Part shown: piece by piece, positions 111 to 58,778 of the stretch
Layout of the letters: each line of letters opens with the position of its first letter
How positions within the stretch are numbered: position 1 is the stretch's first letter
Made by a program: the position numbers and the translations under genes
Source of the DNA: Octopus vulgaris
Lineage: Eukaryota
Direction: 5' to 3'
Assembly (NCBI GenBank): GCA_951406725.2
Contig: OX597814.1
Span: 152,892,001 to 152,956,000, forward strand
Length of the DNA stretch: 64,000 bases
Notes under the pieces: generated by a model
The model's input: the letters and a program-made list of their open reading frames with translations, nothing else
Databases searched by the model: none
Told to the model about the DNA's origin: nothing

Positions 111-281
<171 letters not shown>

Positions 282-10292: not shown

Positions 10293-10443
10293 TCATGCTT
10301 CTTTCTCAGCGAGTTTTGTAAGTTCATGTATTTCTCTCCCCAACATTTTTGTGACATGCATTGCTTGTTTTACTTCATCACCGCCAATCTGTTGCAAGGC
10401 CACTTCTGCAGCTGTTCGAACATCGGCAATGACATCATTCCGC
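10293..10443 (-). CDS. TIR-HEAT gene coding exon 9 (last HEAT repeat, stop)
   Basis: ttttcag|G CGG AAT GAT...GCA TGA; (W)RNDVIADVRTAAEVALQQIGGDEVKQAMHVTKMLGREIHELTKLAEKEA*. Confidence 0.9.
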
Positions 10444-13400
10444 CTGAAAATAAATAAATAAAACCTTATAATTTTCAAAGCATTGAAACAATTTAAAATT
10501 TTTTATTGTTTCAGTCATTATATTGAGGTCATTCTAGGACACTATGTTGAAGAGTTTTAGTCAAACAAACCAATCCTACTACCACTTAAGCACTGACTGG
10601 CCTGGAAATATAGTAGATGTGCCCAAGGTGCTACACTGTAGGACTGAACCCACAATGTGGATGCAAAATGATCTCCTTAACCACACCCAATCCTGCACCT
10701 GAATTTTTTTTTTTTTTTTATCAAATTTGAACTAGGAAAACCAGAAATCAATAATGGCCTGATTTTGAAAAATTCACCAATTACTTTGCAACAGCTCTGT
10801 ATAAGCATTGATTGAGAGGATAAAAAAAATTACCGGTGAACTAGGAGGCAGCAGAGAAATGAAGAAATATGATTTCATACACCTAGCAAACATCAGAAAT
10901 AAAAAATTCTGAACTCATGAAAATGAGTGTGCTGGTGGCACGTAAAAGACACCATTCGAGTGTGATCGTTACCAGCATCACCTTACTGGCACCTGTGCAA
11001 GTGGTATGTGTAAAAGATTCGAGTGAGGTCGTTGCCAGTACCACCTGACTGGCCCCGTGCCGGTGGCACGTAAAAGCACCCACTACACTCTCAGAGTGGT
11101 TGGCATTAGGAAGGGCATCCAGCTGTAGAAACTCTGCCAGATCAAGATTGAAGCCTGGTGCAGCCATCTGGCTTGCCAGCCCTCAGTCAAATCGTCCAAC
11201 CCATGCTACCATGGAAAGCGGATGTTAAACAATGATGATGATGATGAATAAGTAGAGGCATGCTAAAAAGTTTGCCTTTCAACCATGTGGTTGCCAGTAC
11301 AGTACAGCTCATTAGCACCTTGGGCAAGTGTCTTCTACTATAACCCCAGGCTGACCAAAGCCTTGTGAGTGGATCTGGTAGATGGAAAGCGAAAAGAAGT
11401 CTATAATGTAAATGTTATGTCTCCTTGCCTTCACATCATGCAAACAGTGTCTTCTGCGTTGAAAATATGTCTGTTCATAAGAAAATATTACCATACTTGG
11501 ATACAGGGCATTTGGCTATAGAAAATCTATCTCAACAAATACCACCTGACCCATGCATACATGGAAAAGTAGACATTAAAACGATGATGAATAGAGAAAT
11601 GCTTTAGCACTAACATTAAATTATTTTATAATCAGTTTTCAGATAAAGCTAAAAGACATCTCAATTATAGAAGTAATAAAAATGTAGTTGAAATATTTAC
11701 TCTTTTCAGTTTCTGTTTACCAAATCTCACAAGGGTTTACTTGGCCTGGGGTTACAGTAGAATACACTTGCCCAAAGTGCCATGCTTCAGGACTGAACCC
11801 AAGGCCACATGATTGGGAAGCAAGCTTCTTAACCACAGAGCCATGCTTACACAGTTTAAAAAGCTAAAAAATGCTTTTTTTTTTAAATCAAGAAAACCAA
11901 GAATAGCAATTTGAATAAAATGTAAAAGTTACCATAATTCTAATAGAGTTGGTACAGCTTTGTGTGCTTGTGAACGTCCAAGTGCCAAACATCCAGCTTC
12001 TCTCACTAAACGATCTTTGTCTTCGAGAACATCTATTAATGCTTGAATTGTTATATCATCATTAGCACCAGTCTGGGCAAGACAAATGGCTGCAACAGTA
12101 CGAACATTTGGTTCTTCATCGTTCGTTACTAAGTAGATTAAAGCATCAACAACTTCTCGGCTTTTGAATTTACCTTTAAAATAGAAGAAAAACAAACAAA
12201 ATTTAAAACATAATCAGGGTTTAGAACAGATGAAATCAGGTGTAGTCATTGGTAAACCGAAATGCACCTATTCCTACCATCTTAAATAGAATAGAAACAA
12301 TACCAAAATATCCTTAATTTTTAAATTAATGAATAGTTTTCTACAAATATCTTAACCCTAGATCTTCATTACCAAACTTTTGGCATTTGTGTTGTATTTA
12401 GTCAATATCAAACAGTTCGGAATTAATCTAAGAGACTTTTATATTTTAAATACATCTTGGCCTTCATTAGATCTGTACTAACTAGTTGATTTTTTTTATG
12501 CCTAATCAGTGAAGGAATGATAGTGTTTATGAACTTTGGCAGGGCACCCAAAACTGGTCATCCTCAAACTGGTGACCCAGTCTAAATTCTTTTTTTGTTT
12601 ACTATCACCGGAGAGTTTTTATCTTTTGTCTCAGTAAAAGGAAAAAAAAAAAAAAGCAGCAGCTATGGCCTTTTTATGGGATCTAAAGGGAAAGGTGAGG
12701 ATTAAATAGGAAGAAATCATGAATATAGAGGTCCTGCAGTAGGGAGCAGCACATCAAGAGATAGTTATCCTTGACCAGAGATCAGGTCCAAATACTTGTG
12801 AAGTTTAACACCATCCAAGAACAATCCATCCATTGTTTTTGTCTAGCCACTTTCTCCTCTCACAATCCAAGGCTACAGTTAAAAGCCCCTTCTTCAAGAT
12901 GTCACATAATGGGAATGAATCCAAATCATATTATTGAAAAACCATGTCTGCAACCATGACATATAAGAATTTATCAGTTTGCAAGACATTACCCAAACAT
13001 TTCTTCACAGCTGTGTTGTTATGGAGTGTGCTTTGTAACCATATGGTTTTGGGTTCTGTCTTGCTGCAAGGCACTTTAGGAAAAAGTGTCTTATAATATA
13101 ATCTCAGGTTAACCAATGTCTTGTGAGTAAAATTGCTAAATAGATACTATATAGAAGCCTTTTGTATACATTGTATAGCTGTGTGTGTCTAAACATTTAC
13201 TTTCTCTGTCTTTGCATGATGCTAGCTTAATAATTTCGATATGCCAAGACCAGAGGAAAAAAAAAAAGTACCATAATTGAGTAAGAATTGGTGATAGGAA
13301 TGGCATCTGGCCATAGTCTTGTTCTATCCATGCTAGCCATGGAAAGAATGGATGTAAAAATGACAATTATACATTTTCCATGCAAGATGATCTTTAACAC

Positions 13401-16400
13401 ATCGATACATTCAACTATTATGAAGTAATCTTGTTTATAATCAGTGAATTGTACCTATTCATGTGTTTTCTCGCTGCTAAGTGAACCAAACTGTTGAAAA
13501 TGAAATGTCTTTAAGAAACTATAGCTATAAGACTCAATATGCTTTAGAAATATAAAGAAATATTAGTAAATCAGTTTGGTTTGCTGTAAAGGAGAGTAAC
13601 CAAAGCAGAAAATTTACTTACTAAGATTTTCAATGGCTTCTACACGGACATGAGAATTTATGTTAAACACTTCTTTCATAGCATAACTTTCCCGTGCCTG
13701 CTCTTCTATCCTTTGCCACAAAGATGAAACTATTCCATCCACAGTGCAAAATTCTGATAAAAAATAAAAATAAACAAATAAGGAAATACAGTGATGATTA
13801 CAAAAGAATTTTATTGAAAGTTAGTTAACAACAGAAATCAAGAAATATATGCTCAGCATTTAATCAAAAATAAAACAAAAAATTTGTAATTAACTTTTGA
13901 TACTAATCTATGCCTTTGGCGTTTTTAAATAAAGCTGCCTGTTTTAAAGTGTTCAATGTTAAGGAATGTTACAGTCAACTGAATGTCAGTATATAACTGG
14001 TACTTGATTTATAGACCAAAATCCCTGCCAGCAGAGATACAAGTCAGCAACTCATTATGTAAATGGATGAATAAAAACTAATGCATTTAGTCACGTTGTT
14101 TCTGTCTCAGTTACCATCACTCTTTCAATAATGTAATATTACATTACACTGGTTGAAGGCTACACATTCTTAAGGTTGTAGAATAGTGAACTGAATGGAT
14201 ACCAATATTGTATCAATTCAATTGACATTTATTTTATTATTGAAGAGGGGTGAAACACAGGATATAGAGGAACACAAGACATTTGGTCTATCATTGCCAT
14301 TTCTGTTACTCTACCAAATGATGAAGAATCTTAAAGTGATATATAAAAGTTAATATAATATTAACATTTATATAATATTATATAAATATATTATATAATA
14401 TAAATATTAGTTATTTCTTTCACAGCTCTGGTCAAACAGAACAATAAACAAAAGTGTTTAAACTATAACAATTCCATCTAACTTTTAAGAAGTGCAACTC
14501 ATCAAAGTCTCTCTTTTTAAGATAGAAGGATGCGGTTTAAGGAAGATTTGGTTGCTATTTCTAGCAAATCCAGCAACCATGTAACATTTTTATGTTCATT
14601 AATGAGTAGATTAAGCTAGTATTTGAAACACAACTGAACAGAATAGTCATTGCACAAAGACAGGAGATTTTTATCAAATAACCCTTACGAGAACATTAGA
14701 TAATGTAGTCCTAAATATTTCATTAAAATTACAAGATCCATTGCTGGAATTTCTTTCATCGTAGGCCTGCCTAGTAAGGGTTAATCTGGAGGAGATAACT
14801 AACTGGAAATCAAAACCAAGATCTCGGGAATCAGAACTCCCTATCTGCATTAAGCCCAAGATACTAAATGAGATGCAGACCCTTTTTGACTGCTATTTAA
14901 TATAAAAAAAAGTCTGAAAAAAAATTGATTTCTGTTCACGTAATTTCTTTTCTTCACTTCTTAACAAATCAAGGTTGAACTCACCAATAAATTTATCTCG
15001 TTTAAGACACCCATCACGAGTTATATGCATCTCCCACCGAAGGATAGATTTCAGCCAGTTTTGATCATCAGGAGTGTAAGCGCTAAACAAGCCTTGATAA
15101 TCACAGGTCAAATCATACCAAAATCTGCATTGGAAATAAAAAAAATCAATTATAAATTGGAAGAATTAACCTATCACAGTTTCATTTACCTGTCTCACAA
15201 AACAATGTTGTGAAACCTCTGGTAGATTTAATTGAGAGTTGGAAGTTTAAATATGTCATAAGCAAACAAATTATTGACAGGGTAAGATGATTGGAGATAT
15301 ATTACAAAAACCATCCAACCCAACTGAAAATCAGGTTGTTACAACAAGTGCTTCAGTTGATCCAATCAATGGAACAGCCTGTTTGTGAAATCACAGGTAT
15401 ACCCTTAACGTAGTTCTCAGAGAGATTCAGCGTGACACAAAGTGACATGGCTGGCCCTTTGAAATACAGGTATAGCTCATTTTTGCCAGCCAGGTGGGCT
15501 GGAGTAATGAGAAATAAAATGTCTCGCTCAAAGACAACACAATATACTGCCAGAAGAGTGGTTGGCGTTAGGAAGGGCATCCAGCTGTAGAAACACCGCC
15601 AGATCTGACTGGCCTGGTGCAGCCTTCGAGCTCCCCAGACCCCAGTTGAACCGTCCAACCCATGCTAGCATGGAAAGCGGACGTTAAACGATGATGATGA
15701 TGATGATGATGAAATCAAACTCATCACCTTGCAACTGTGAGTCAAATACCCTAGCCACTAAGCCATGCACCTTGATGAAATGTGTTTAACTAAGAAGTAG
15801 ACTGATTTTTAAAGTAATGCCATTTAAAAATATAAACTCTCTTTACTCTTTTACTTGTTTCAGTCAATTGACTGTGGCCATGCTGGAGCACCGCTTTTAA
15901 TCGGGACTTATTCTTTTGTAAGCCCAGTACTTATTCTATCGGTCTCTTTTGCCGAACTGCTAAGTAACGGGGACATAAATACACCAGCATTGGTTGTCAA
16001 GCAATGCTAGGGGGACAAACACAGACACACGCATATATATATACACATATATGACAGGCTTCTTTCAGTTTCTGTCTACCAAATCCACTCACAAGGTTTG
16101 GTCGGCCCGAGGCTATAGTAGAAGACACTTGCCCAAGGTGCCACGCAGTGGGATTGAACCTGGAACCATGTGGTTGGTAAACAAGCTACTTACCACACAG
16201 CCACTCCTGCGCCTATAGATTGGACAGGTTTTCTGAGGCAGATTTTATGGCTGGATGCCTTAACTAGTTTAGCTGCCTCTTACAACACAAAAATGAGGAA
16301 TATCTAGGATATACATGAAAGTAGTAATGAAAATGGTGTTGACAAATAAAAATTCAAATTTGAGGAAACCAGTGGTGATCTTTCTAAAAAAGAAATTTAC

Positions 16401-18301
16401 TTGTAATATCAGGGTTCTTGTCTCCCCAAGCTATACAAACATTCAAATTTGTGAATTCTACTAAATATCATTAGTGCAATGCTTGAATAATATTGGTTTC
16501 AAATTTTGGCACAATGTCAGCAATTTCAGGGGAGGGGATAAGTTGATCACACTGAACTATGTTCAAATGGTACTAATTTAAAGAACAATGAAAGAATGAA
16601 AGGCAAAGTCGACCCCCTCCACAGCATTTGAACTCAGAAGAAATGCTGCTAAGCACTTTTCCCAGCTCACCGCCTTAAACACTAAAGTAATATTCCAAAA
16701 TAACTTACTGATTCCAATCTATTTGGTTTTCTGTATATTTTCTATCCCAATAATCAATAGGAGTTTCAAGGTTTTGTTTGTTGTAAATCTTAGTTGATCG
16801 CTGAGGTCTCTTCGATTCAGCATTCGACTTGTCTACGTAAAGAACACAGAAAAAAAAAAATCAATAAAGACAAAATAAAAAAAAACATGACACTCAAATC
16901 AAAACAGCTTGAGAAATTTTAACCCTAAGAAAAATATATTAAAATGGCTTCATTCATTTTCAGATTATGGAGTGCATAAAAGAATTCAAATTGTTTTGCA
17001 ATTTCAATTACAATTCAGAAATAGCTTAATCCTAATAAATTCCTACCAACTTAGTAAACCAATCATTTGTCTTCAATAATCTTTTTCTTTGAAGACATAA
17101 GTATTTTTCCTTATTATAGCAACAAGTTAAGGTTGTGATTAACTTTAATCCATTAGCATTCAGATTATTCTGTCATATATAATGCTTATTAATTCACATA
17201 GCTTTGGATTAATCATACTTATCTTGTACTTATGAGATTTTGATATGATTGTTTATATTAAGAACGACATTGTAGGGTAGGTGTGAAAGATCAGAGCCGG
17301 CCAGTTTGATCATAGAACAGAATATTTTGGCCTGATATGGCCAGCTAAAAGCAAAGGGTCAATGTATATACTAATGTCACTTGCCCAAAGAATCCAATTG
17401 AGACAGCATTTTATTTTCAAGAGTCAAGCTCTCATTAAAATCAAAGAAAGAATTCAGTTATGATGTACAAGTATAACTAATAATATGAGGCAAAGAAAAT
17501 ATCAAATCTGTCAACATCTATCTTTACTTTTTGATGTGAAACCATGTATTGAAAACTGTTGTACTTCAAAAAGGTCATTCTGCCAATACAACAAAAGCAT
17601 ACTGGCTGTAGTTTACTTTTTATTATTAATTTCAAAAATATAATATTAATAATATTGGTTTTTCAGTGATTTTCTCAGCAACAGTTTTTTTCCTTCTCCA
17701 TCAAAAATATTTATTGGTATATTCAGATTTGGTATTTGTTGTTGTCGACTAGCAATCCCTACACCAACTAAACTTACTTTAACTTAGAGGATCAGATTTA
17801 GTATCTCAGAGAAGAGACTGCATCGGTATGGGCATGTGATGCACAGATAAAGAAGTGCCAAGCAATCATTTGGAAGAAATTGATGGAAGAGAATGAACAA
17901 GGAACACCTGGAAGAAGTGGTAAATGCTAATCTCAGAGGGCTGAACTTTACAAAGGAGATAAAAGACCCATAACATGTGATGTGATAATGTTATATTAAA
18001 GAAAACTTAGTTAACCCATGCAAACATGGAAAAATAACATAAAATGATTATCATCCTCGGCTTGATGGCTATTTCTTTCCATGTGAGCATGAGTAGGAGA
18101 AAACTTTTTGAGGTAGCACTTAAATGAATGTCCTTCCTAACACCAACCCGTGTTTATAGCTAAGATATTGCATGCCATTGGTCTGCATGTGTTGAATTAA
18201 ACTGCAGGATACAGTGTTTATGCAGAACATACATAAGCAACACCAATAACTTAATATATGAATGCAAAGACAAATTCACACATACATGCCATGCATTTAT
18301 A

Positions 18302-18345
<44 letters not shown>

Positions 18346-21300
18346 CACACGTGGAGGTGCAATGGCCCAGTGGTTAGGGCAGCATACTCGCGGTCGTAGG
18401 ATCGCGACTTCGATTCCTAGACTGGGCATTGTGAGTGTTTATTGAACGAAAACACCTAAAGCTCCATGAGGTTCCGGCAGGGGGTGGTGGCGATCCCTGC
18501 TGTACTCTTTCACCGCAACTTTCTCTCACTCTTTCTTCTGTTGGCCTGCTCACTTAGCCAGCGGAGTGGCGTCATTTGAAGACTAAAACAATGTGAAGCG
18601 CATTGTGACCAGTGATGTGTAGCAACATCTGATAGCTTGGTCGGTCACGGTGATCACGGTAATACACACACACACCATATCTAATGGCTATATAAGATGT
18701 ATTTTTTTAAAACGTTTTTAAAAAATTACAAAAAAAAAAAAAAAAAGACTGGCACTCTAGCAATATTAATTACTTCAGCACGTGTCTAATACTGCTCGGG
18801 CATCTTTTATGCAATCAATTATATATTAAGGTATACAAGTTATAAGCTTGTCAAGATATCAATTGATTGATAAATTAAATTGCTATAAAAAGTAAGAACT
18901 AATTTGAAGAAAAAGAAAAAAAGACAAAGGAGAAACTTACTGTTAATGGAATTTAATACAGCTTTTATGTCCCTCAAAAGTTCGTTCATGGTTTCTGGAT
19001 ACCTCTCCTTATCAAGAAATTTATACCACTGCATACCTGCCAGCTTGAGTCTCCTGTGAATAAAAAAAAATATTTTGCTTTTATAAAAGAGAAAAGACAA
19101 ATTTCATAGTTATTTTTTTCTTTAGATATATTAGATGCATATTCATTATTTTCTGAAAATTTCTTCGAAACTATCAATTAATCTAAACTTCAGTTTCCTT
19201 CAATATGATTGCTTTGTCAGTTTTAACGTCCACATTTCCATGCTTGATTAAGTTGGACAGAATTCACTGAGGTAGATTTTCTATAGAGGGATGCCATTCC
19301 TGTCACCAACCATTATCTATTTTCAAGTAAGGTAATATTTCCCCTTGGTCAGACAGATTTCCACATAAGATTAGGAACCAAGAACACAGCTTGTATGACT
19401 ATGCACATTTACAAATATCACATGATGTCAAGAGAAGGGTACAAACACCTCTATGACAAGCTTCTTTTAGTTTCCATCAACCTAATCACTCATAAAGCTT
19501 TGGTTGGCCTGGGGCTATAGTAGAAGACACTTGCCCTAGGTGCCACACAATAGGACAGAAACTGAAACAATCTTGTTGCAAAGCAAACTTCTTAACTACA
19601 GACACACCTGTACACAGGTGTCACACCTGTACTACAGACACACCTGTACACAGGTGTCACACAAAGCTTCATATTAATAGAAGAAAATTAAATTGATATT
19701 CAGTCACTTACATCCCAGTATCCATAGCCGAAAGGAGATTTTCATCTGAAGAAATGCTAACAGGGAAAATGCTTTTGTTTGATATATATGCCAAGGACAA
19801 TTCATCTTTACAGAATTTGGAATGAATGGAAGTTTCGCTGACAATAGATATGAACACCTGTCATGAATAAAAAGATAGAAAAAATGTAAGAATAAATTTG
19901 ATTACTAAAATATGGAAAAAAATTTAACATTTAATAAGAATTCCTCATAATTATAAAATAATGAATTTCCTACATTGACCAGAGTGTTAAAAATTTATTG
20001 GAAAGCAGTGGTATTAAATAAATTAACCAAAGATATTTTATGGTATTTCTTCTTAGTATGGACTCTAGAGAGATAAACATTCAAAGTTGACACCAGCTGG
20101 ATTTGAACTCAAAGTCAGATAAGTAAATACCACAATGCATTTTTTTATCCAGCACTCTAGCAATTTTGCACATCTGTTTTGACAATACCTATATTTAACA
20201 GCTTTATATATTCTTCTACTTATTAAGATTTTGATGTCAGACAACCAAAAAATGTTTATGTAAAATGTGCAGTGTGTGTGTGTATGAAAGCTATGAGAGA
20301 ATACATGGATTAAAAATATTAAGAAATGTAAATGAAGTTGAAGGTTTTGCAAAGATCAGACTATTTTTGTAATAGTGAAGCAGTAGCATCTGAGAAAACA
20401 AGTGATGTCCTGTGTTGGCAAATAATAAATGGAAAAAAATTAAGTGGTACAAGTTAGTACAAAGAAGAGATTTGGCACTTCAGAAAGGAATCTTTATCAA
20501 TGCCTCAGGTTTGGCATGGCTTCTACAGCTGGATGTAGAACAACCACTTTACAGAACACACAGGATGCATTATTTCATGGCACCAGCACTAAAAAAATTG
20601 TCTTGCCCTTGGCAAAACTAAAAACCGTTTACAGCGTGTACTGGGTTTTTGTGCTGTTTTGTAGTAAGCACTTGTAACCAGCAAGATAAAACTAACTAAA
20701 AGAGAACAGATTTGGTGCAAAGAGATCTGTTATGGTAGTGGGAAGAGTTAACAGAAGCGATACTTTTTAGTGGAAGACAGGAAGAAGTAGTGTAAGGAGT
20801 TAGTGTGAAAGAGAGAGGATAAGTGGTGAGGAGGATGGGGCAAGTGAGTAAAGATGACCATATATACAAATACTTTAAACATTTTTATTTTCATTTTGAA
20901 TGTGCTTTTTGATGCTGGAAAGATCTGATCTTGCGATATTGTTATTATTTCTCTCAGTGAATGCAGAAGCTTTGTTGAAAAAAGGTCAGCATTCATAAAG
21001 ACAGAGATTTGACTCATATACTACTTGCAACATAATGGATGCTGCCTGAGGTACCAAGTGGCCAGGTGGTAGCACTGAATAGGCAACAAATTATGACGAA
21101 CACCCAACAATCTATCCATGCAGTTTCCATCAAGTTAATGTCACCCACATGGTTTGAATAACCCAAGCTATGTTAGAAGATATCATAGCTCAAAATACTA
21201 CTCGGTGAAATAACCAGGAACCACTTAATTGCAAAGCAAGTTTCATAACAACTCAGCTATGCTTGCACAAATTAATTCAGTAAATGTTTTTTCTTTAAGC

Positions 21301-24300
21301 TCAAATCTATATTCTTTACAACTGAATTTTATTGGACATTTTAATCCTTTTTTCGTGATAAGTAAATTAAGCAATAATGACAGGTAAATTGAGCAATAAA
21401 TGTTTTATAAAATTAAAAGAGAGTTGTGGTGGTGGAAAGCCTGAATAAAACTATATTAGTGTATACTCTGATGTTTATAATAACCTACTTTTCAAGTGAT
21501 ATCATTTGCAACAGCTATACAAGCACTCAAACAATAACATAACTTGTAAAAGCAAGTTTACATACACACACACACACACAATTATATATCATTACGCACA
21601 ATAAACACAATATAATAAGGCGCTGAATACTAAATGCTGCAACAAAGTACCATGATCATCATGCACATGTGAGAAAGTGTATATGTGCATATAAAGTAGA
21701 GTATGCATATGCATGAAAAGGAGTATGCATATGTAGAAAAATGAAGTATGCATATGCAGGAAAAGGAGTATGCATAAGCATGAAAAGGAGTATGCATATG
21801 CATGAAAAGGAGTATGCATATGCAGGAAAAGGAGTATGCATATACAGGAAAACAAAGTATGCATATGCAGGAAAAGGAGTATGCATATGCAGGAAAAGGA
21901 GTATGCATATGCAGAAAAAGGAGTATGTATATGCAGGAAAAGGAGTATGCATAAGCATGAAAAGGAGTATGCATATGCAGGAAAATGAAGTATGCATATG
22001 CAGGAAAAGCAGTATGCATAAGCATGAAAAGGAGTATGCATATGCATGAAAAGGAGTATGCATATGCAGGAAAACAAAGTATGCATAAGCAGGAAAAGGA
22101 GTATGCATAAGCATGAAAAGGAGTATGCATATGCATGAAAAGGAGTATGCATATGCAGGAAAACAAAGTATGCATAAGCAAGAAAAGGAGTATGCATAAG
22201 CATGAAAAGGAGTATGCATATGCAGGAAAACAAAGTATGCATATGCAGGAAAAGGAGTATGCATATGCATGAAAAGGAGTATGCATATGCAGAAAAAGGA
22301 GTATGTATATGCAGGAAAAGGAGTATGCATAAGCATGAAAAGGAGTATGCATAAGCATGAAAAGGAGTATGTATATGCATGAAAAGGAGTATGTATATGC
22401 ATGAAAAGGAGTATGCATATGCATGAAAAGGAGTATGCATATGCATGAAAAGGGGTATGCATATGCATGAAAAGGAGTATGCATAAGCATGAAAAGGAGT
22501 ATGCATAAGCATGAAAAGGAGTATGTATATGCAGGAAAAGGAGTATGCATATGCAGGAAAAGGAGTATGCATATACATGAAAAGGAGTATGCATATGCAT
22601 AAAAAGGAGTGTGCATATGCAGGAGACTATATATGCATGTGTGGTAGTGCATATAAAAATAGGTGCCTGCACAGAGTATGTGCACACATGAAAGAGCTGT
22701 ATGCTGGAATGTGTGAATGTGTATGTATGCAAGTGTGTGTGTGTGCGTGTGTGTGTGTGTATGCATGTGCATATTCATAGAAAAGAGAGCAGTACTAATT
22801 ACATAGCTGTACATTTAAGTAATTTACTCTTATAAAAAATACTGTTACACTTCATAAACAACATTTTGTTAAATGAAATGACTGGCCAAAATAGCTACTG
22901 ACCTTGAAATCAGTTGTCCTAAAAACCCATCCTTGAATGTTTACTTAGACAACTAACTACGTATGCAATAACAAAAATCATCTTTTTACACATTTTAAAT
23001 TAAGAGAGGTCATTTGAAGCAAGAAATTTTAACTTTCATGTAGCTTCTGCACTGCCCTTAATGCTTCTTAAACTTTTCAGCAAATATTCTTTACTTTGTG
23101 TGTGTGTGTGTGTATAAATACAAACACTCGAAATTATTCAAAAATAGTTAAAATTCCTTTGTAATAAATTCTGTTGCTTCCCTTCCCTGTCCTACAATTT
23201 CTAATCCCCACCCAGATTTTTTTTTTTTTTTTTTGCTGAAATAAAACAAAATATTAAAAACAATGAGAAAAAAACCTAAACACTTTCATCTGAATTGATA
23301 TATGTTGTGCTAGTATATATATATATATATTTTTCATGTCATTAACTATTCTCCAACAATAAGGTATGTTGAGAAAAATTCTCAAGAGAAATCAATATTA
23401 TGAAACAAGATTTTCCAGCACAGGAAACAAATTAAAAGATATTTACTTACTTTACTCTCAATGATAGCTTGTCCAATTTTTTTAAGGAAGTCAACACCAG
23501 CTCCTATATCAGCAGTGTCTACCCAAACACTAATGTTGTTCTTTTCCAGAGTATCTAAATAAGCATAAAAAGTTAAAAAATTGTTTAGATTTTTATATTA
23601 TTTATATGTATATATATATGAGAAACAATTTAGCAACTAATAACCATTCTAAAGCTCTTCATTCCTGCCAACCCAGTCTTATTTCTTATTTCTTTATTGC
23701 CCACAAGGGGCTACACACAGAGGGGACAAACAAGGACAGACAAACAAGGATGAAAGGCAAAGTCGACCTCGGTGGAATTTGAACTTAGAACGTAAAGACA
23801 TGAAATACCTATTTCTTTAGTACCCACAAGGGGCTAAACACAGAGAGGACAAACAAGGACAGACAAATGGATTAAGTCGATTATATCGACCCCAGTGTGT
23901 AACTGGTACTTAATTTATCGACCCCAAAAGGATGAAAAGCAAAGTTGACCTCAGCAGAATTTGAACTCAGAACGTAACGGCAGACGAAATACGGCTACAT
24001 ATTTTACCTGGTGTGCTAACATTTCTGCCAGCTCACCGCCTTATTTCTTTTAAGACTATTATTTATTCACTGTTTATCAGTAAATTAAAAACAAATATAA
24101 AATTCAGTGTTATTACAGAGGCATGCATACCAGACAAATGATTTTATCTGAGATAGTGCGTTGGAACAAAAATGATTTCAGTTTGGAAGATACCTGTTAG
24201 CCATTTGTCAATGTTTTCATTGCTCAAAACTGCAACATAGTCACTACTAGGTTACAGTTTGGGGCACCAAAAATTTTGACATCATACAACAAACAAATAT

Positions 24301-30300: not shown

Positions 30301-32789
30301 GCCTGACTCTAAATTTATAATTACGGCGAGGCAGCTGGTAAATTGTATGATAAAATTGTTTTCTTTTGACAAGAGTAAAAGATTTCGAATATCCCAGAGT
30401 TTAAGCTCCGTAACAAAACTTTCAGGATGGAAAAATAAAGTTGGTCGATTCCTTTCACATGAAAAACAAACATACCTTGTTTTAAAAAAAGTTACGAAGA
30501 AACGATGTACCGGAGGAATGCATGCACAAAAGAATTGATCGAATTAGCTTGCATTTTGAGAACGTTTTGTTTTGGAGCGTAACATTCCGGAATACAAGAA
30601 AAATTTACTAGTATGGTTTGATTCCACATTTAGAAGTACGGTGAGAAGCTTGCTTCCCAACCACATGGTTCCGGATTTAGTCCCACTGCGTGACACCTTG
30701 AGGCTACTATAGCCTCGAGCCGACCAAAGCCTTGTAAGTGGATTTGGTAGACGGAAACTGAAAGAAACCCGTCGTATATATGTATACATGTGTGTATGTC
30801 TTTGTTCTCCACTACCACCGCTTGACAACTGGTGTTGGTGTGTTTACCTCCGCATGACTTAGCGATTCGACAAAAAAGGATCGGTAGACTAAGTACCAGG
30901 CCTAAGTCCTGGGGTCGATTTTGTTCAACTAAAACAATTCAAGGCGATGGTGCAACATAGCCGCAGTCAAATGACTGAAACAAGATAAACGGTTTAATAG
31001 GCCTCAAAATATCAAGTATATTTGCAAAGCCTGTTTCATCATAGCTAAAAACATGCTGCAATAACAAGAAAATAAGAGAAAGAAAAAGCTGGTGATGGGA
31101 TAAGGGAAAATAGAAAGGGTGAGGAGAAAGTGGATGTGATAAGACATTTAGAAGTTAAATACACCGCAAGGAAGAAAAAACGAGGGAGGGAGGAAGTATA
31201 CAAAAAAAGAGGAAGATTACACAAATCGTTTAGAGAGGAGAAAGAAAGATTGTGAAAGAAGAAAGACAAAGAAAAAAGAATAGTGAAATGATTTTTCCCA
31301 CCCTACAGAAAGCTGAATGAAATTTAACAATTCAAGCTACTCCTCAAAAGTTGAATTTTTTTTTTTAACCCATAAAAGCTAGAAAGTTACTACTATTGCT
31401 ACTACTAATATTTAACACAGCTACTATTATGGTTGTTGTTAACTGCTTACATAAAATAATAAAACACATCCTACGTAAAAGAGTGAAGGTGGGGAGAGAT
31501 AGACAGAAGGAAAAAAAAAATTATAAGAGATCGAAACACTGAGGTGGGAAGAGTGCGAGCATGTTAGTGTGTTTTACGTACGAAAATTCCAGTTGCTAAT
31601 GAATTTAAGCTTTCTCCTTAAGACTTTTGAAAGTATATCCCTGGTACATTTTTTCTAAGGCACTAAATCAACTGCCTGTAAAAGGTTATAAGGAGCGAAG
31701 ATAGATCAGACAGATCTACCCGAAAAATTAAGACAAAAAAACACAAGAGGAAGTTTCGGAAGAAGTTCCATACCTCGTGGTAAAAAGGAAAACTAATGAT
31801 TTTTGTCATTTTTTTTTTATTATTCCTGTGTTTCATACAACGGAATTTACAAACCTGACCCCCCACCTCCACTATTATATTTTTCATTTTTGTCCCATCC
31901 CCTATTCCTTCTGTAACCGGTGGAATGGAATTCTGCTTCAAGCACCCCTCATAACTATTTTTAGAAAATTTTTGCGAATTTGTATTCCTTTCCCAGGAGG
32001 CCTGGGATTCCTAATCAAAATACGCCAAACATAGAGCAGTCACCAACAGTGTTCCAGCATGTTCTTGGTTGTAGTGACTAAACTGAACTAAAACAACTGG
32101 CTGTGTGAATGGAAGTCTGTGTCTGTGAATGAGTACACATGTATTATCACTAGGGGCAACAGTTGGTTGAAAGGCTGTCAGTTTGTGTTCGGAAGTCGGC
32201 TCAGAGATTTCAACTCAATCCGGCTAACCTACCCACTCGTAAATACAAATTGCTGATGTAAGCATTAATAGTATCGTAAACATTTACTTATTTCCTATCC
32301 GAACGAGTGAAGAATTTATATGATCGCTCAAGCGAATAACAATAACCAAATCACCTTAAAATCACTTCGTACCATTTTCATCTCTATAAAAGCTGGGAGA
32401 TCATCCGAAAGTAAGTTTGCTCGATAATAGTTAACCTGGAACTATACATCATTTTCTTCCTTCACTCAGAGACGAAAAAAGACAAGAGCTGAAATATTAA
32501 ATTCTATACCCCTCAGCAAAACAACTGTTTCTTTAGTTTTCGAGTGTAACCAGTGATTGAAGTCTCTTGGGAACTGCTAATTAGAATTGCAATAGAAGAT
32601 ACAAAAGGTAAGATGTGCTACAAAATCAATGGAAATAATATACTAACCTTTTAAGTATAGCATAAAATCCTTGTTGCTATGGCTGTAACTTATCATTAAA
32701 TCACGGCTGACTGGACGTATTGTAATTGGAGGGTGTTGAGATTTTTCTTTTCTGTACACAGGAGGACAACGGGATATTTTATGTCCCAT
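10293..32789 (-). CDS. Spliced gene: TIR domain + Cbl-type EF-hand-like region + HEAT repeats, 430 aa (9 coding exons)
   Basis: join(32648-32789, 23451-23554, 19712-19857, 18941-19053, 16709-16832, 14985-15124, 13622-13753, 11933-12173, 10293-10443) = 1293 nt, open from ATG to TGA; every intron is GT-AG and phases 1,0,2,1,2,1,1,2 all match. Confidence 0.92.
10925..11248 (+). mobile_element. RTE-tail retroposon (family C)
   Basis: Repeated ggtggcacgtaaaa units, gagtggttggcattaggaagggcatccagctgtagaaac, tail gcggatgttaaacaatgatgatgatg. Confidence 0.75.
11933..12173 (-). CDS. TIR-HEAT gene coding exon 8 (HEAT repeats)
   Basis: tttaaag|GT AAA...TTA TG|gtaact; (S)KFKSREVVDALIYLVTNDEEPNVRTVAAICLAQTGANDDITIQALIDVLEDKDRLVREAGCLALGRSQAHKAVPTLLEL with L..D....VR..A...L HEAT signatures. 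Confidence 0.93.
13622..13753 (-). CDS. TIR-HEAT gene coding exon 7
   Basis: ttatcag|AA TTT...CTT A|gtaagt; (E)FCTVDGIVSSLWQRIEEQARESYAMKEVFNINSHVRVEAIENL. Confidence 0.9.
14985..15124 (-). CDS. TIR-HEAT gene coding exon 6 (EF-hand-like)
   Basis: atgcag|A TTT TGG...ATT G|gtgagt; (Q)FWYDLTCDYQGLFSAYTPDDQNWLKSILRWEMHITRDGCLKRDKFI. Confidence 0.9.
15553..15711 (+). mobile_element. RTE-tail retroposon (family C), well preserved 3' part
   Basis: gagtggttggcgttaggaagggcatccagctgtagaaac...gcggacgttaaacgatgatgatgatgatgatgatg. Confidence 0.75.
15836..16215 (-). mobile_element. SINE family A
   Basis: Reverse complement of the 4290/24650 element, full length. Confidence 0.85.
16709..16832 (-). CDS. 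TIR-HEAT gene coding exon 5 (linker and start of EF-hand-like region)
   Basis: ttacgtag|AC AAG...AAT CA|gtaagt; (N)KSNAESKRPQRSTKIYNKQNLETPIDYWDRKYTENQIDWN. Confidence 0.88.
18351..18660 (+). mobile_element. tRNA-derived SINE, distinct family
   Basis: Head ggaggtgcaatggcccagtggttagggcagc..actcgcggtcgtaggatcgcgacttcgattcc has A-box/B-box similarity; tail ggtcacggtgatcacggt; a related decayed head lies near 61337. Confidence 0.65.
18941..19053 (-). CDS. TIR-HEAT gene coding exon 4 (end of TIR)
   Basis: ttcacag|G AGA CTC...AAC A|gtaagt; (M)RLKLAGMQWYKFLDKERYPETMNELLRDIKAVLNSIN, matching the TIR L...QW..F motif and last helix. Confidence 0.92.
19712..19857 (-). CDS. TIR-HEAT gene coding exon 3 (TIR catalytic helix)
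   Basis: atgacag|GTG TTC...GGG AT|gtaagt; VFISIVSETSIHSKFCKDELSLAYISNKSIFPVSISSDENLLSAMDTG; S..C..EL motif with the Glu codon at 19801-19803. Confidence 0.93.
21698..22622. repeat. Minisatellite, 22-23 bp unit (gagtatgcatatgcatgaaaag and variants), about 40 copies
   Basis: Directly visible tandem array with recurring variants (ataagc, gcagg, aaacaaa, aaatgaa); no unique spacers. Confidence 0.95.
23451..23554 (-). CDS. TIR-HEAT gene coding exon 2 (TIR BB-loop)
   Basis: tatttag|AT ACT...AGT AAA|gtaagt; (D)TLEKNNISVWVDTADIGAGVDFLKKIGQAIIESK, matching TIR V(W/F).D...I..G......I..AI..S. Confidence 0.93.
23680..24042 (-). mobile_element. SINE family B with a partial tandem duplicate
   Basis: Minus strand aaggcggtgagctggcagaaatgttagc...gagttcaaattc...ctttt/gcctttcatcc...ggggtcgataaattaagtaccag...cccttgtggg..ataaagaaata; 23680-23810 repeats part of 23810-24042. 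Confidence 0.8.
24650..25025 (+). mobile_element. SINE family A
   Basis: Full-length copy ggcgcaggagtggc...gactgaaacaagtaaaagagtaaaagag. Confidence 0.85.
26623..27468. mobile_element. Tc1/mariner-superfamily foldback derivative made of two inverted 3' ends
   Basis: TA|caggatgtcccaaaa...ttggggcatcttg|TA; arms of about 350 bp are reverse complements. The left arm (minus) encodes WFQQD..TAH and WPSLYPDLTSQDFFMWEYLKERVY; the right arm (plus) encodes LDFFMWGYLKE. Confidence 0.85.
28710..29049 (+). mobile_element. Helentron-associated (DINE/HINE-like) non-autonomous element
   Basis: Subterminal inverted repeats acctctgcc / ggcagaggt, tttgtctgtttgt microsatellite-like tract and 3' hairpin gcgctctctgagtgc followed by T-rich end. 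Confidence 0.6.
30640..30990 (+). mobile_element. SINE family A (diverged, CpG-retaining)
   Basis: Same body and tail as the other family A copies. Confidence 0.75.
32648..32789 (-). CDS. TIR-HEAT gene coding exon 1 (start, TIR box 1)
   Basis: tttttatttag|ATG GGA CAT...AAA G|gttagt; MGHKISRCPPVYRKEKSQHPPITIRPVSRDLMISYSHSNKDFMLYLK with TIR D..ISYSH motif. The ATG directly follows an acceptor, implying an upstream exon. Confidence 0.9.
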
Positions 32790-35960: not shown

Positions 35961-36330
35961 CTAGAAGATAAGTGGACACATTCCTGAAATTTTTACAGCA
36001 ATGCTATCGAAGTCGATTTCTCATTTTCATTCAAACAATAGTTTGTTGAATATGAGCGGACTTCGGCGAGAGTTTAAAAAGAAGCACGAGAGTTTCAATC
36101 TGCGGAGTCGTGCTGTCGCTGTCTTACGAGCACATTTCTCAAAATGTATTTGCTTAAAAGCGCGCGCGCACACACATAATAGTAATATAGTGAGCTGCAA
36201 AACTTAACTTTAGTTCACAGAGATTATCAACTGAGCGTCGGCAAAACTCACCTTTAAAGCGTTTAAAATATACATTCTGTCAACTTAGTTTATTGGGGGT
36301 TATCTCCAGTTGTTTGTTTTCAACTTGAAG
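35961..36330 (-). promoter_or_regulatory. Candidate 5' UTR exon(s)/promoter of the TIR-HEAT gene
   Basis: Apparently non-repetitive, CpG-rich stretch with two minus-strand donors: CTAG|gtatgc (exon end 35961) and AAAG|gtgagt (exon end 36252). Inference only. Confidence 0.4.
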
Positions 36331-37020: not shown

Positions 37021-38281
37021 CTGGGTCATCCCATAAATAATGCGTTTTTTTTTTTTAATTGCATGAACTAAAAGTCAGGGGTGGGGATAACTACCCGCAT
37101 CAACTTGCTATAGAAGCAGGTAGTTACTTTGTCCTTATTCTTGGTGCAAATTTTGAAGAGTGCAGTTCGATTTTAACAGTTATTTTTTCAAAGCTATAAT
37201 GGAAGTGACAAAGAGCATATTCGGCGTTTTGTTTTATGAGTTCAATAAAGGCAACAGCACAACGGGAAGTGCGAGGAATATTAACGCTGTGTATGGGGAT
37301 CGGACAATAAGCGTAAACCAGTGTCAAAGGTGGTTCCAGAAATTCCGAGCCGGAAACAACAGCCTAGAAAACGAGCCACGTCCTGAAAGATCTGTAGAGC
37401 TCGGCGAGCTCCTGCAAACCCTGCTGGAACAAAATCCCATCGAAACTGTTGATGAACTAGCAGAGAAGCTTGTATTTGGTCATTCAACTATTCATCGACA
37501 CCTGCGTGCCATTCGAAAAATCAGGCAAATTGGATCAATGGATTCCTTAAACTTGCCGAATCTATTCGCGCGGAGAGAGTGAATGTGTGCTCTTCTTTGG
37601 TCTCTTACGTCTCGCGAATGAACCTTTTTTTGAACCGAATAGTGACTGGTGATGAGAAATGGGTCTCTATAAAATGTCAAGTGCCGAAGACAATGGGTAG
37701 GGAAAGGAGAAACACCGGCACCCTAGGCTAAAGAAGGCCTTCACCCACGTAAGGTGTTGTTATCTGTTTGGTAGAATATGAAAGGTTTAATCCACTTTGA
37801 AATTTTAAACCCAAACCAAACGATAACACGGGAGATCTACTGCGAGTAGCTTGAGCGGCTTAAGTCTGCGCTAGAAGAAAAACAACCAACTTTACTTTCA
37901 AGACGAAAGGTGTTCTATCAGGACAACGCACGGCCACATACAGCGAGGATGACATTCCAAAGGCTGGAGCAGTTTGATGGAAAACGATGCCCCACCCACC
38001 ATAATCGCCGGACATTGACCCATCTGATTACTATTTATTCCGCAATCTTCAAAATCATTTGGGCGGAAAAAATATGAATTTTGTAAACGAGGTCAGAATA
38101 GTTCTAGAGGAGTGTTTTTCGTTACGGACAAGCGAATTTTGGAAGAGGGGCCTTGCAAGTCTACCAGATAGATGGAAGGGCATTGAAGAAAATGGAAGGA
38201 GAGTATATTTTAGATTAAAAAAAAAAAGAACTTTGTTTATCTTAATTTTGAAAAATAAAAGAAGTATATGGGATGACCCAA
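37021..38281 (+). mobile_element. Full-length, inactivated mariner transposon (1261 bp)
   Basis: TA|ctgggtcatcccata...tatgggatgacccaa|TA. Transposase remnants RNINAVYG...QRWFQKFR.G, IVTGDEKW, LHPRKVLLSVW, QDNARPH, HPP*SPDIDPSDYYLF, GLASLPDRW; several stops and frameshifts. Confidence 0.95.
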
Positions 38282-38495
38282 TATTGTAATGGAATTTTCT
38301 ACAATATACTTTTCAGATGGTGTAGATTGGAATTGGTCCGGAAAACTTTTTTCCGAGGGTGGAGAGAGCAGTTTCGGTAAATTCACACGAGTCAGCTTTG
38401 TTTTCTCATAACTTTCAGAAAAAGGGTTTTTTAGTGAAATTTTCTACAAATATTTTTCAGCTGGTGTACATTACGATTATATTTAATATATACTT

Positions 38496-56613: not shown

Positions 56614-57551
56614 TGTATCTTCCATACAGTTTCTGCCTAACTCCACTTATAAGGCAAGATTCGACTTGAGGCTATAGTAGAAGCTTGCCCATAGTGCTTA
56701 TCAATGAAACTAAACCTAGAACAATGTAACTGTAAAATAAACTTAAGCACATGTCTGTGCTTTGTAAATAGTAGTCAAATCTCCATCAAACCAAACCAAC
56801 AGTCTTGAAAAGAAAAAAATGAGTCAGTTATAACTAGTGCTGGTCCTTAGCTAAACAACATCTCTCAAATCACAGAGCAGTGTCTTAAGAAAAGGGAAGG
56901 CTATAATGTAGTCCTTGAGAACGGGGTATGCAAAAACATATAGGGTGGACATTTTATATACATATATTCGCTGTAGTTGAAAGTATGTTACATGTAAAGA
57001 AATGGGTGACCAAAACCCCCACTATGCCACTGCCTTAATGCACTATGACTGAAAAAAAAAGTCCAAGGAATAAACAAAATGAAGCATCAGTTTACAAAAA
57101 AGAACCAGTAAGTTGAATGAATACTACTTGTAACTTGCAGATAAGTTGCACCAGAATTACAAACTAACAACTTTAACTACTTGAGATTTCACACTTCTTT
57201 ATCCTATGATGGTGATGTTTCATAATGTTTCCCATCACTAGAATTATATGAGTCAGTAGACCATTACTTATATATTTATCCAATAACTAAATCTTCACTA
57301 GTTATTCCAGTTAAATATCTTAGTAGGTAGAAAGTTCACAACTTAACTCTTGCAATATTCAGTTTGAACCAGTTTCTCTTATATTGCTAATATCCTTGAG
57401 AAGGTATGAAAGTTAAAACAGCTAATTTCCTCTTTCCTGAAATCTAAAGTTTCGTATGTAAACAATTTTTTTTCTTCCTTTTTTTAAAATTAATTTCATA
57501 TAATAGCAGAGAGAATATATATATATATATAGTGGATAACTCTCTAATAAT

Positions 57552-57552
<1 letters not shown>

Positions 57553-57592
<40 letters not shown>

Positions 57593-58145
57593 TATATATA
57601 TACACACACACATATACATATATACATACACACACATATACATATATACATACACATATACATATATACATACACACACATACATATACATATATATACA
57701 CACACACATACATATACATATATATACACACACACACATATACATATATATACACACACACATACATATACATATATATATACACACACACATACATATA
57801 CATATATATATACACACACACATACATATACATATATATACACACACACATATACATATATATATATACACACACATACATATATATATACACACACATA
57901 CATATATATATACACACACATACATATATATATACACACATACATATATACGTATATATATACACACACATACATATATATATATATATACACACACACA
58001 CATATATATACACACACACACACATATATATATACACACACACACACATATATATACACACACACACATATACATATATATATATACACACACACACATA
58101 TATATACACACATACACACATATATATATATACACACACACACAC
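57553..58145. repeat. Compound (TA)n/(CA)n microsatellite, about 600 bp
   Basis: Almost pure alternating purine-pyrimidine tract with a loose higher-order period of roughly 20-30 bp. Confidence 0.97.
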
Positions 58146-58778
58146 TTAACTATTAACTTCTTTAGCTTGATCTGGCAGCAGTATTCTTCATGTTTTTAAT
58201 AACTAAAATATTTTGATATCACTTACCAGCTGCATAGTTTATCTAATGACAGTTTTGTAAGGTAAATGATATTCAATTCCAATTAAGAAACGAACAGTAC
58301 ACCACAGACACCATTACAATTTACATGGAAGTTTCTATGTAGCTGTTCAACTGGCTAGAAACAGCAGTCAGTATCTTATGAGTTGCAAGGCAGCAAGCTG
58401 GCAGAATCATTGGCACCCCGGGCTAAATGCTTAGTGGCATTTTGTCAATCTTTATGTTCTGAGTTCAAACTCCACCAAGACCAGCTTTACCTTTTATCCT
58501 TTCAAGGTTGATAAAATAAGTACTAGTTATCTCTTCCTCCGAAAGGTTGATAAAACAAGTACTACTTATCCCCTCCCCTGAAATTGCTGGCCTTGTGCCA
58601 AAATTTGAAACCAATATCGTCAGAGCTGCCCTTTAATTCTTAGTCAACCCTGATCCAGTCAACCTTTCCAGCTATAACTGTTGTCCTTTTTTTTTTCCAG
58701 TGTATTCTGCTTTACTTAAAATGATATGGTGTAATTCAAAGGAGATTTAGCTGCAGTTTCTAAATCTAGCACTCACAT

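What the first reader, a model, noticed from the sequence alone, without database searches (positions are those of the whole stretch)
19712..19857. TIR catalytic glutamate (E101) is retained
Seen: SIHSKFCKDELSLA with the Glu codon at 19801-19803. Known: enzymatic TIRs (SARM1 E642, plant TNL TIRs, bacterial TIRs such as ThsB) use a Glu in the S.WC..EL helix to cleave NAD+. Inference: the protein could deplete NAD+ or make ADPR/cADPR-type messengers. The Glu is necessary but not sufficient, and the usual Trp is Phe here.
Basis: partly seen in the sequence, partly recalled or inferred. Interest (0 to 1): 0.7.

Follow-up and report, generated by a model that had tools for sequence, protein, structure and literature searches.

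The report
Untested octopus TIR-HEAT candidate NADase

Summary
19712-19857 is coding exon 3 of a nine-exon minus-strand gene whose spliced product is identical to Octopus XP_029636231.1 (430 aa); codon 19803-19801 is Glu101. The protein is TIR, then a Cbl-type EF-hand, then HEAT repeats, with homologs from placozoans to amphioxus. E101 aligns with AbTir E208 and Cat1 E74. The Glu alone is weak evidence: over 70% of all TIRs carry it, TLR1/2/6/10 included. The Phe is no defect: the family has Tyr or Phe, never Trp (0 of 78), and known cyclases use both. Better evidence is the rest of the pocket (S34, D60, G67, F70, S95). Of 98 family members, 68 keep Glu and pocket, 16 lost both in five separate lineages, 14 keep Glu without pocket, none keeps pocket without Glu. 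Best reading: an oligomerisation-gated NAD+ glycohydrolase restrained by its HEAT arm (0.55); rival, a non-catalytic adaptor (0.3). The family is already catalogued as ARM-TIR, probably ecTIR-DC 11; I found no assay of it.

The parts
32648..32789 (-). Coding exon 1, aa 1-47: Met-Gly start (possible myristoylation site), TIR strand bA and AA loop (S34-H37 at 32690-32679)
   Evidence: myristoylation motif is recalled, not tested
23451..23554 (-). Coding exon 2, aa 48-82: TIR bB, BB loop, helix aB (W58, D60, G67, F70)
19712..19857 (-). Coding exon 3, aa 83-130: TIR bC, helix aC, bD (the finding)
19801..19803 (-). Glu101 codon (GAA), equivalent of AbTir E208 and Cat1 E74
19813..19815 (-). Phe97 codon, equivalent of AbTir W204; Tyr in most homologs
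18941..19053 (-). Coding exon 4, aa 131-168: end of TIR (aD, bE, aE)
16709..16832 (-). Coding exon 5, aa 169-209: flexible linker and start of the Cbl-type EF-hand domain
14985..15124 (-). Coding exon 6, aa 210-256: Cbl-type EF-hand domain
13622..13753 (-). Coding exon 7, aa 257-300: end of EF-hand domain, start of HEAT repeats (S290, R293, A296 invariant in the first alignment)
11933..12173 (-). Coding exon 8, aa 301-380: HEAT repeats
10293..10443 (-). Coding exon 9, aa 381-430 and stop: last HEAT repeat and C-terminal helix
36252..36275 (-). Candidate short upstream coding exon (eight codons, in frame with exon 1), would give an alternative N-terminus; unverified
   Evidence: ATG to AAG|GTGAGT; 15 of 82 homologs begin MY[K/R/M] or MRF

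Best explanation
A cytoplasmic, possibly membrane-tethered TIR-EF-HEAT protein whose TIR is an oligomerisation-dependent NAD+ glycohydrolase. Shown here: gene structure, three-domain architecture, position of E101, conservation of the pocket. Inferred: (1) E101 attacks the nicotinamide ribose in a pocket lined by S34-H37, D60, G67, F70, S95 and F97; (2) the site is completed by a second TIR in a head-to-tail assembly, as in SARM1, AbTir and Cat1; (3) the EF-hand and HEAT arm dock on helix aC and hold the TIR off until an unknown trigger, by analogy with the SARM1 ARM domain; (4) products are nicotinamide plus ADPR, with a cyclic isomer possible because position 97 is aromatic; (5) paralogs with a decayed pocket are non-catalytic partners or regulators.
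For: Four of the seven same-chain Cat1 active-site residues are identical (S34=S7, D60=D33, S95=S68, E101=E74). AbTir residues whose mutation cuts activity have identical or aromatic counterparts (S140=S34, D167=D60, G174=G67, W204=F97, E208=E101). The bA and BB-loop motifs match SARM1 (ISY, IDV..L.AG.KF). The best solved-structure sequence matches of a TIR-only ortholog fragment are enzymes: Cat1 E 5e-7, AbTir 6e-4, SARM1 3e-3, against TLR1 at 1.5. ESM Atlas neighbours are TIR_2 clusters at 0.95-0.97, mostly bacterial. Of 98 members, 68 have Glu plus at least 8 of 9 pocket residues, 16 lack both, 0 have pocket without Glu; Glu loss maps to five separate lineages on a tree built without the TIR, each with a decayed pocket. 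In decayed members 12 of 25 well-kept positions in aa 30-101 are lost, against 3 of 40 in HEAT (part of the 12 define the class). Helix aC, aD and first-HEAT residues (D100, L104, A105, L133, R293) stay fixed in both classes, as an interdomain contact would.
Against: No assay of any member was found. Glu is common in non-enzymatic TIRs and survives in 14 of 30 decayed members. Fold scores do not separate enzymes from scaffolds: SARM1 Z 15.9, Hydra TRR-2 15.9, MyD88 15.2, IL-1RAcPb 15.2; with the family profile TLR15 (E 1.2e-7) outranks AbTir and SARM1. AbTir R178, D182, Y207 (assembly) and K202 (diphosphate) are not kept: L71, G75, D100, S95. There is no recognisable oligomerisation domain (no SAM, NB-ARC or nucleotide sensor). 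The BB loop also serves TIR-TIR contact in scaffold TIRs, so its conservation need not mean catalysis. One tested set had 40 active against 70 inactive TIRs. The nine-residue pocket score was set from the family consensus and loosened once; the sample is mollusc-heavy.
Confidence: 0.55

Rival explanations
1. A non-catalytic scaffold or adaptor. The TIR binds other TIR proteins (TLRs, MyD88-like) through its BB loop, the HEAT arm recruits a partner, and E101 is kept for structural or binding reasons as in TLR1/2/6/10.
For: Glu above 90% in TLR1/2/6/10. Glu kept in 14 decayed paralogs. Scaffold TIRs score as well as enzymes by fold. The Aplysia ortholog is filed among TLR adaptors, by domain content only.
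Against: Closest sequence matches are enzymes rather than TLRs or adaptors. Buried pocket positions and Glu decay together in five lineages. An aromatic residue at position 97 is kept in 67 of 68 intact members (this position is part of the score).
Confidence: 0.3
2. The pocket is functional but does something other than bulk NAD+ hydrolysis: binds an NAD+- or ADPR-like ligand as a sensor, or acts on another substrate such as NAD-capped RNA or nucleic acids.
For: Pocket conservation shows constraint, not chemistry. Tyr or Phe in place of Trp throughout. TIR proteins with NAD-RNA decapping activity are reported (search listing only), and flax L7 TIR binds DNA and 2',3'-cAMP (passage).
Against: Such activities are reported in TIRs that also cleave NAD+ (listing; otherwise recalled). 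Nothing here points to a specific other substrate.
Confidence: 0.12
3. The octopus copy is a decaying member of an enzymatic family (Tyr to Phe at 97, Asp to Asn at 39).
For: F97 and N39 depart from the consensus Y and D.
Against: It scores 9 of 9 pocket residues; aa 29-116 are identical to Argonauta at 82 of 88 positions; Phe with Glu occurs in six lineages; N39 is shared with two other close homologs.
Confidence: 0.03

Closest known systems
ecTIR-DC 11 / ARM-TIR invertebrate TIR proteins
   Same: TIR followed by armadillo-type repeats, about 380-500 aa, present in Trichoplax (two neighbouring loci labelled ecTIR-DC 11; a Trichoplax member is in this family, P0074). The Aplysia ortholog LOC101851332 is listed as ARM-TIR and orphan TIR of unknown function.
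   Different: Those catalogues assume an adaptor role; in the passages seen they mention neither the EF-hand, the pocket nor the dead paralogs. Identity with family 11 rests on architecture and size, not on a sequence check.
SARM1 / C. elegans TIR-1
   Same: Animal TIR with matching bA and BB-loop motifs plus a helical-repeat domain; TIR fold Z 15.9-16.6.
   Different: Domain order is reversed (TIR first), repeats are short HEAT units, no SAM domains, no aC insertion, about 20% identity; not an ortholog.
Bacterial TIR_2 NADases Cat1 and AbTir
   Same: Best sequence matches among solved structures; ungapped alignment through the WxxxE helix with S, D, S/G and E pocket residues shared.
   Different: No CARF or coiled-coil activator; Tyr/Phe for Trp; AbTir interstrand residues not kept; no prokaryotic full-length relative was found by a pattern scan.
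Cbl tyrosine-kinase-binding domain, EF-hand subdomain
   Same: Middle domain's top fold match, Z 8.9, rmsd 3.2, 84 aligned, the only hit at Z 8 or more of 48161 chains; Pfam Cbl_N2 in 27 of 63 members at E up to 1, best 1.4e-4.
   Different: No four-helix bundle, SH2 or RING; the second loop lacks fixed acidic ligands, so calcium binding is doubtful.

Membership tests
TIR domain superfamily | TIR profile match and five-strand, five-helix fold | tested here: met
   TIR_2 E 3.6e-20; model and fold search Z 15-17
Enzymatic (NADase) TIRs | Glu at the aC catalytic position | tested here: met
   E101 = AbTir E208 = Cat1 E74
Enzymatic (NADase) TIRs | Pocket residues from bA, AA loop, BB loop, aB and aC | tested here: met
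   S34, D60, G67, F70, S95, F97 match AbTir, Cat1 or SARM1 positions; K202 of AbTir is not kept
Enzymatic (NADase) TIRs | Trp four residues before the Glu (strict WxxxE) | tested here: not met
   Phe here, Trp in 0 of 78 homologs; aromatic substitution is known in cyclases, so this lowers the motif match, not the mechanism
Enzymatic (NADase) TIRs | Self-assembly through BE plus AE or BCD interfaces | not tested
Enzymatic (NADase) TIRs | Glu-dependent NAD+ cleavage | not testable with these tools
   needs an assay
SARM1 orthologs | ARM-SAM-SAM-TIR order with tandem SAM domains | tested here: not met
   TIR is N-terminal; no SAM family among the 25 Pfam families shown for 63 members or the 8 for this protein; the model's middle domain is an EF-hand
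ecTIR-DC 11 | TIR plus armadillo-type repeats, invertebrate-wide, present in Trichoplax | tested here: met
ecTIR-DC 11 | Sequence orthology to the defining members | tested here: inconclusive
   the sequences of TrispH2_006850/006851 were not in the searchable supplements; the defining paper was not seen
TLR / IL-1R receptors and MyD88 adaptors | Transmembrane receptor with LRR or Ig, or death domain plus TIR | tested here: not met
   all 430 residues are accounted for by tail, TIR, linker, EF-hand and HEAT
Calcium-binding EF-hand proteins | Acidic ligands at loop positions 1, 3, 5 and 12 | tested here: inconclusive
   loop columns 243-254 are variable and position 12 is mostly N, S, K or A; register assigned by eye from the recalled consensus

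The most novel reading that the evidence does not exclude
An ancient animal family of membrane-tethered TIR enzymes, separate from SARM1 and TIR-STING, that makes a cyclic-ADPR-type messenger or drains NAD+ in marine invertebrate immunity, is gated by a HEAT arm and a Cbl-type EF-hand, and works in pairs with catalytically dead paralogs that arose at least five times; insects, nematodes and vertebrates appear to have lost it.
Probability: 0.2. Interest if true: 0.8.

Novelty: new variant of a known kind. Interest (0 to 1): 0.45.

Why it matters
Proven enzymatic TIR or TIR-like domains in animals are few: SARM1, oyster TIR-STING (passage) and TEP1 (abstract). A recent atlas notes that several eukaryotic TIR clades common in molluscs and cnidarians are uncharacterised. 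A compact 430-residue family, kept from placozoans to amphioxus with natural active-looking and dead-looking paralogs in the same scallop genomes, is a ready test of whether invertebrate animals use TIR chemistry more widely than thought. The finding as first written, a retained Glu, is ordinary.

Tried and rejected
No whole genome is held for this window. Exon 3 alone finds no solved structure (0 hits). RNA search: no RNA holder listed; 20 of 24 runs held the exon's words, none on record as RNA, and no reads could be laid, so splicing and A-to-I editing at the Glu codon are unchecked on reads. Names for the unnamed distant members could not be looked up, so the family's outer range is open. 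TIR region against proteins of 754-2150 aa: 1 hit of 158 candidates, a long-tailed family member; weak evidence. Prokaryote genome scan: 13 loci, 12 HEAT-only and 1 TIR-only, none with both. ESM Atlas gave only leads under 0.9 for the middle domain; Foldseek gave no match at E 0.001 for it. Paper searches for TIR plus HEAT in invertebrates, for TIR NADase in molluscs, for ARM-TIR names and for five gene identifiers found no functional study; the library lacks most subscription papers. Earlier scan notes: nothing. Candidate exons near 14689-14892 were rejected because exon 6 joins exon 7 in phase and the product matches the database protein. One search used a start one base off; its alignment counts stand, its window translation does not.

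Full report
Observation. The window is animal DNA (about 35% GC, few long ORFs, microsatellites). On the minus strand, 19857-19712 is an exon with AG and GTAAGT ends that reads VFISIVSETSIHSKFCKDELSLAY...; the codon at 19803-19801 is GAA. Splice-site scans gave nine coding exons from 32789 to 10293. Joined, they form a 1293-base ORF whose product equals P0001 (XP_029636231.1, Octopus LOC115211707 isoform X2) at all 430 residues, with F97 and E101.

What the protein is. Pfam gives TIR_2 at 32-156 (E 3.6e-20) and HEAT repeats. The AlphaFold2 model (mean pLDDT 87, pTM 0.71) shows a TIR, a loose linker, a helical middle domain and a HEAT solenoid. Folded alone (pLDDT 89), the middle domain's best match among 48161 chains is the EF-hand of Cbl (Z 8.9, rmsd 3.2, 84 aligned; next hit 7.1), in line with weak Cbl_N2 hits in 27 of 63 members at E up to 1 and a Cbl-b hit at E 0.0046. 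A Z of 8.9 is modest; the three lines agree but come from related alignments. Its second loop lacks fixed acidic residues, so calcium binding is doubtful. The protein starts Met-Gly with Ser at 6, as in the recalled myristoylation consensus; 37 of 68 intact members start Met-Gly.

Family. A search with P0001 gave 84 hits among 6092 candidates, 82 of them clear family members or fragments; named ones come from molluscs, annelids, brachiopods, nemerteans, bryozoans, hemichordates, echinoderms, amphioxus, tunicates, acoels and Trichoplax; no named hit is an insect, nematode or vertebrate. A profile search of 1.84 billion representatives added unnamed distant members. A pattern scan of prokaryote genomes gave 13 loci, each matching one domain only.

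Is E101 the catalytic position? P0186, an ortholog fragment that lines up with P0001 without gaps over this region, aligns without gaps in helix aC to Cat1 (SDWCWDE) and AbTir (KDWTNYE); P0001 itself hits the same chains over the same span. Counting along the printed sequences with the papers' numbers: E101 = AbTir E208 = Cat1 E74; F97 = W204; S34 = S140 and S7; D60 = D167 and D33; G67 = G174; F70 = L177; S95 = Cat1 S68. Cat1's site is lined by S7, H8, N9, N10, D33, S68 and E74 from one chain (PMC12162218, passages): four of seven are identical here. AbTir S140A, D167A, G174A, W204A and E208A reduce or abolish activity (10.1101/2022.05.07.491051, passages and one section; PMC11374754, passages). 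SARM1 matches in bA and the BB loop, but its aC insertion throws the sequence alignment off, and the fold tools give no residue pairs, so equivalence to SARM1 E642 is inferred through the motif.

How much does the Glu say? Little alone. It is present in over 70% of TIRs and over 90% of TLR1/2/6/10 (PMC7075850, passages and section 10). Dictyostelium TirB and TirD keep it and showed no NAD+ processing (10.64898/2026.04.30.722052, passages and section 5). The Phe is no sign of decay: among 78 of 82 homologs with a residue there, position 97 is Tyr 60, Phe 5, other 13, Trp 0, and cyclase TIRs carry Trp 9, Tyr 2, Phe 1 of 12.

The family as a natural experiment. 105 of 219 stored proteins carry all three domains; 7 with a truncated TIR were dropped. 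I scored nine pocket positions, not counting E101; the score was set from the consensus and loosened once. Of 98, 68 have Glu and at least 8 of 9; 14 have Glu and a decayed pocket; 16 lack Glu and all 16 are decayed; none has an intact pocket without Glu. On a FastTree tree of the EF-hand and HEAT parts only, midpoint-rooted, Glu changes at least five times and every Glu-less group is decayed. Mizuhopecten and Ylistrum each hold one intact and one Gln-bearing copy; Glandiceps holds an intact and a decayed one. Decay is concentrated in aa 30-101 (12 of 25 well-kept positions) and spares HEAT (3 of 40). This pattern fits a functional pocket under selection. It cuts both ways: the 14 Glu-plus-decayed members show that the Glu outlives the pocket, the BB loop also serves scaffold contacts (PMC8635717, passages), deep branches are weakly supported and molluscs dominate the sample.

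Mechanism. Most likely (0.55) an NAD+ glycohydrolase that needs TIR-TIR assembly, as SARM1, AbTir and Cat1 do. The trigger is unknown and no oligomerisation domain is evident. Residues fixed in intact and decayed members alike lie on aC, aD and the first HEAT repeat (D100, L104, A105, L133, S290, R293), and several repeat-protein superpositions on the model start at residues 94-107 and run on into the solenoid, hinting that aC packs against the HEAT arm. D100 matches AbTir Y207, an interstrand residue, so such docking could block assembly; this is inference from a model. Rivals: non-catalytic adaptor (0.3), supported by scaffold TIRs scoring as well as enzymes by fold and TLR15 ranking second among TIRs by profile; ligand sensor or other substrate (0.12); decaying octopus copy (0.03), against which aa 29-116 match Argonauta at 82 of 88.

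Known or new. The family is catalogued. The Aplysia ortholog is listed under ARM-TIR and orphan TIR adaptors of unknown function (PMC9334734, passages and one supplement row). Trichoplax has two 'TIR Armadillo' genes labelled ecTIR-DC 11 (PMC6321704, passages and supplement 1); the defining paper (recalled as Gerdol and colleagues 2017) was not seen, so the label is probable only. Seven searches found no functional study; subscription papers and bioRxiv supplements, including the TIR atlas table, were out of reach and may place this family. The EF-hand, the intact pocket and the repeated dead paralogs were not mentioned in what I read. Other animal enzymes of this fold are SARM1, oyster TIR-STING and TEP1 (10.64898/2026.05.01.722283, abstract and outline).

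Verdict. Observation confirmed; interpretation partly supported, for better reasons than the Glu. New variant of a known kind, interest 0.45. Left open: activity, assembly, read-level splicing and editing, and the family's outer range.

Noticed in passing
window 111-281 (+): Part of an exon of a short-chain reductase gene (Pfam adh_short_C2, E 2.7e-5), converging on the TIR gene's 3' end.
   Followed up: partly
window 37157-38286 (+): Mariner/Mos1-like transposase remnant in several short frames (HTH_48, E 3.4e-17 on the first piece), just upstream of the TIR gene.
   Followed up: partly
window 21699-22621: Minisatellite, 22-base unit, 41.7 copies, in intron 2; it produces the long low-complexity ORFs.
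   Followed up: partly
window 36252-36275 (-): Possible short upstream coding exon in frame with exon 1; 15 of 82 homologs have a similar Met-Tyr-basic start, suggesting a conserved isoform without the Met-Gly end.
   Followed up: partly
P0099, P0104, P0107 and about 25 others: Unnamed proteins of 800-2300 aa with three to seven tandem TIR domains, found by the family profile.
   Followed up: no
P0144, P0206: Unnamed proteins of about 1800 aa with an N-terminal TIR-like match and many HEAT repeats, without the EF-hand domain.
   Followed up: no
window 57450-58150: Long (TA/CA)-rich simple repeat giving open frames on both strands.
   Followed up: no
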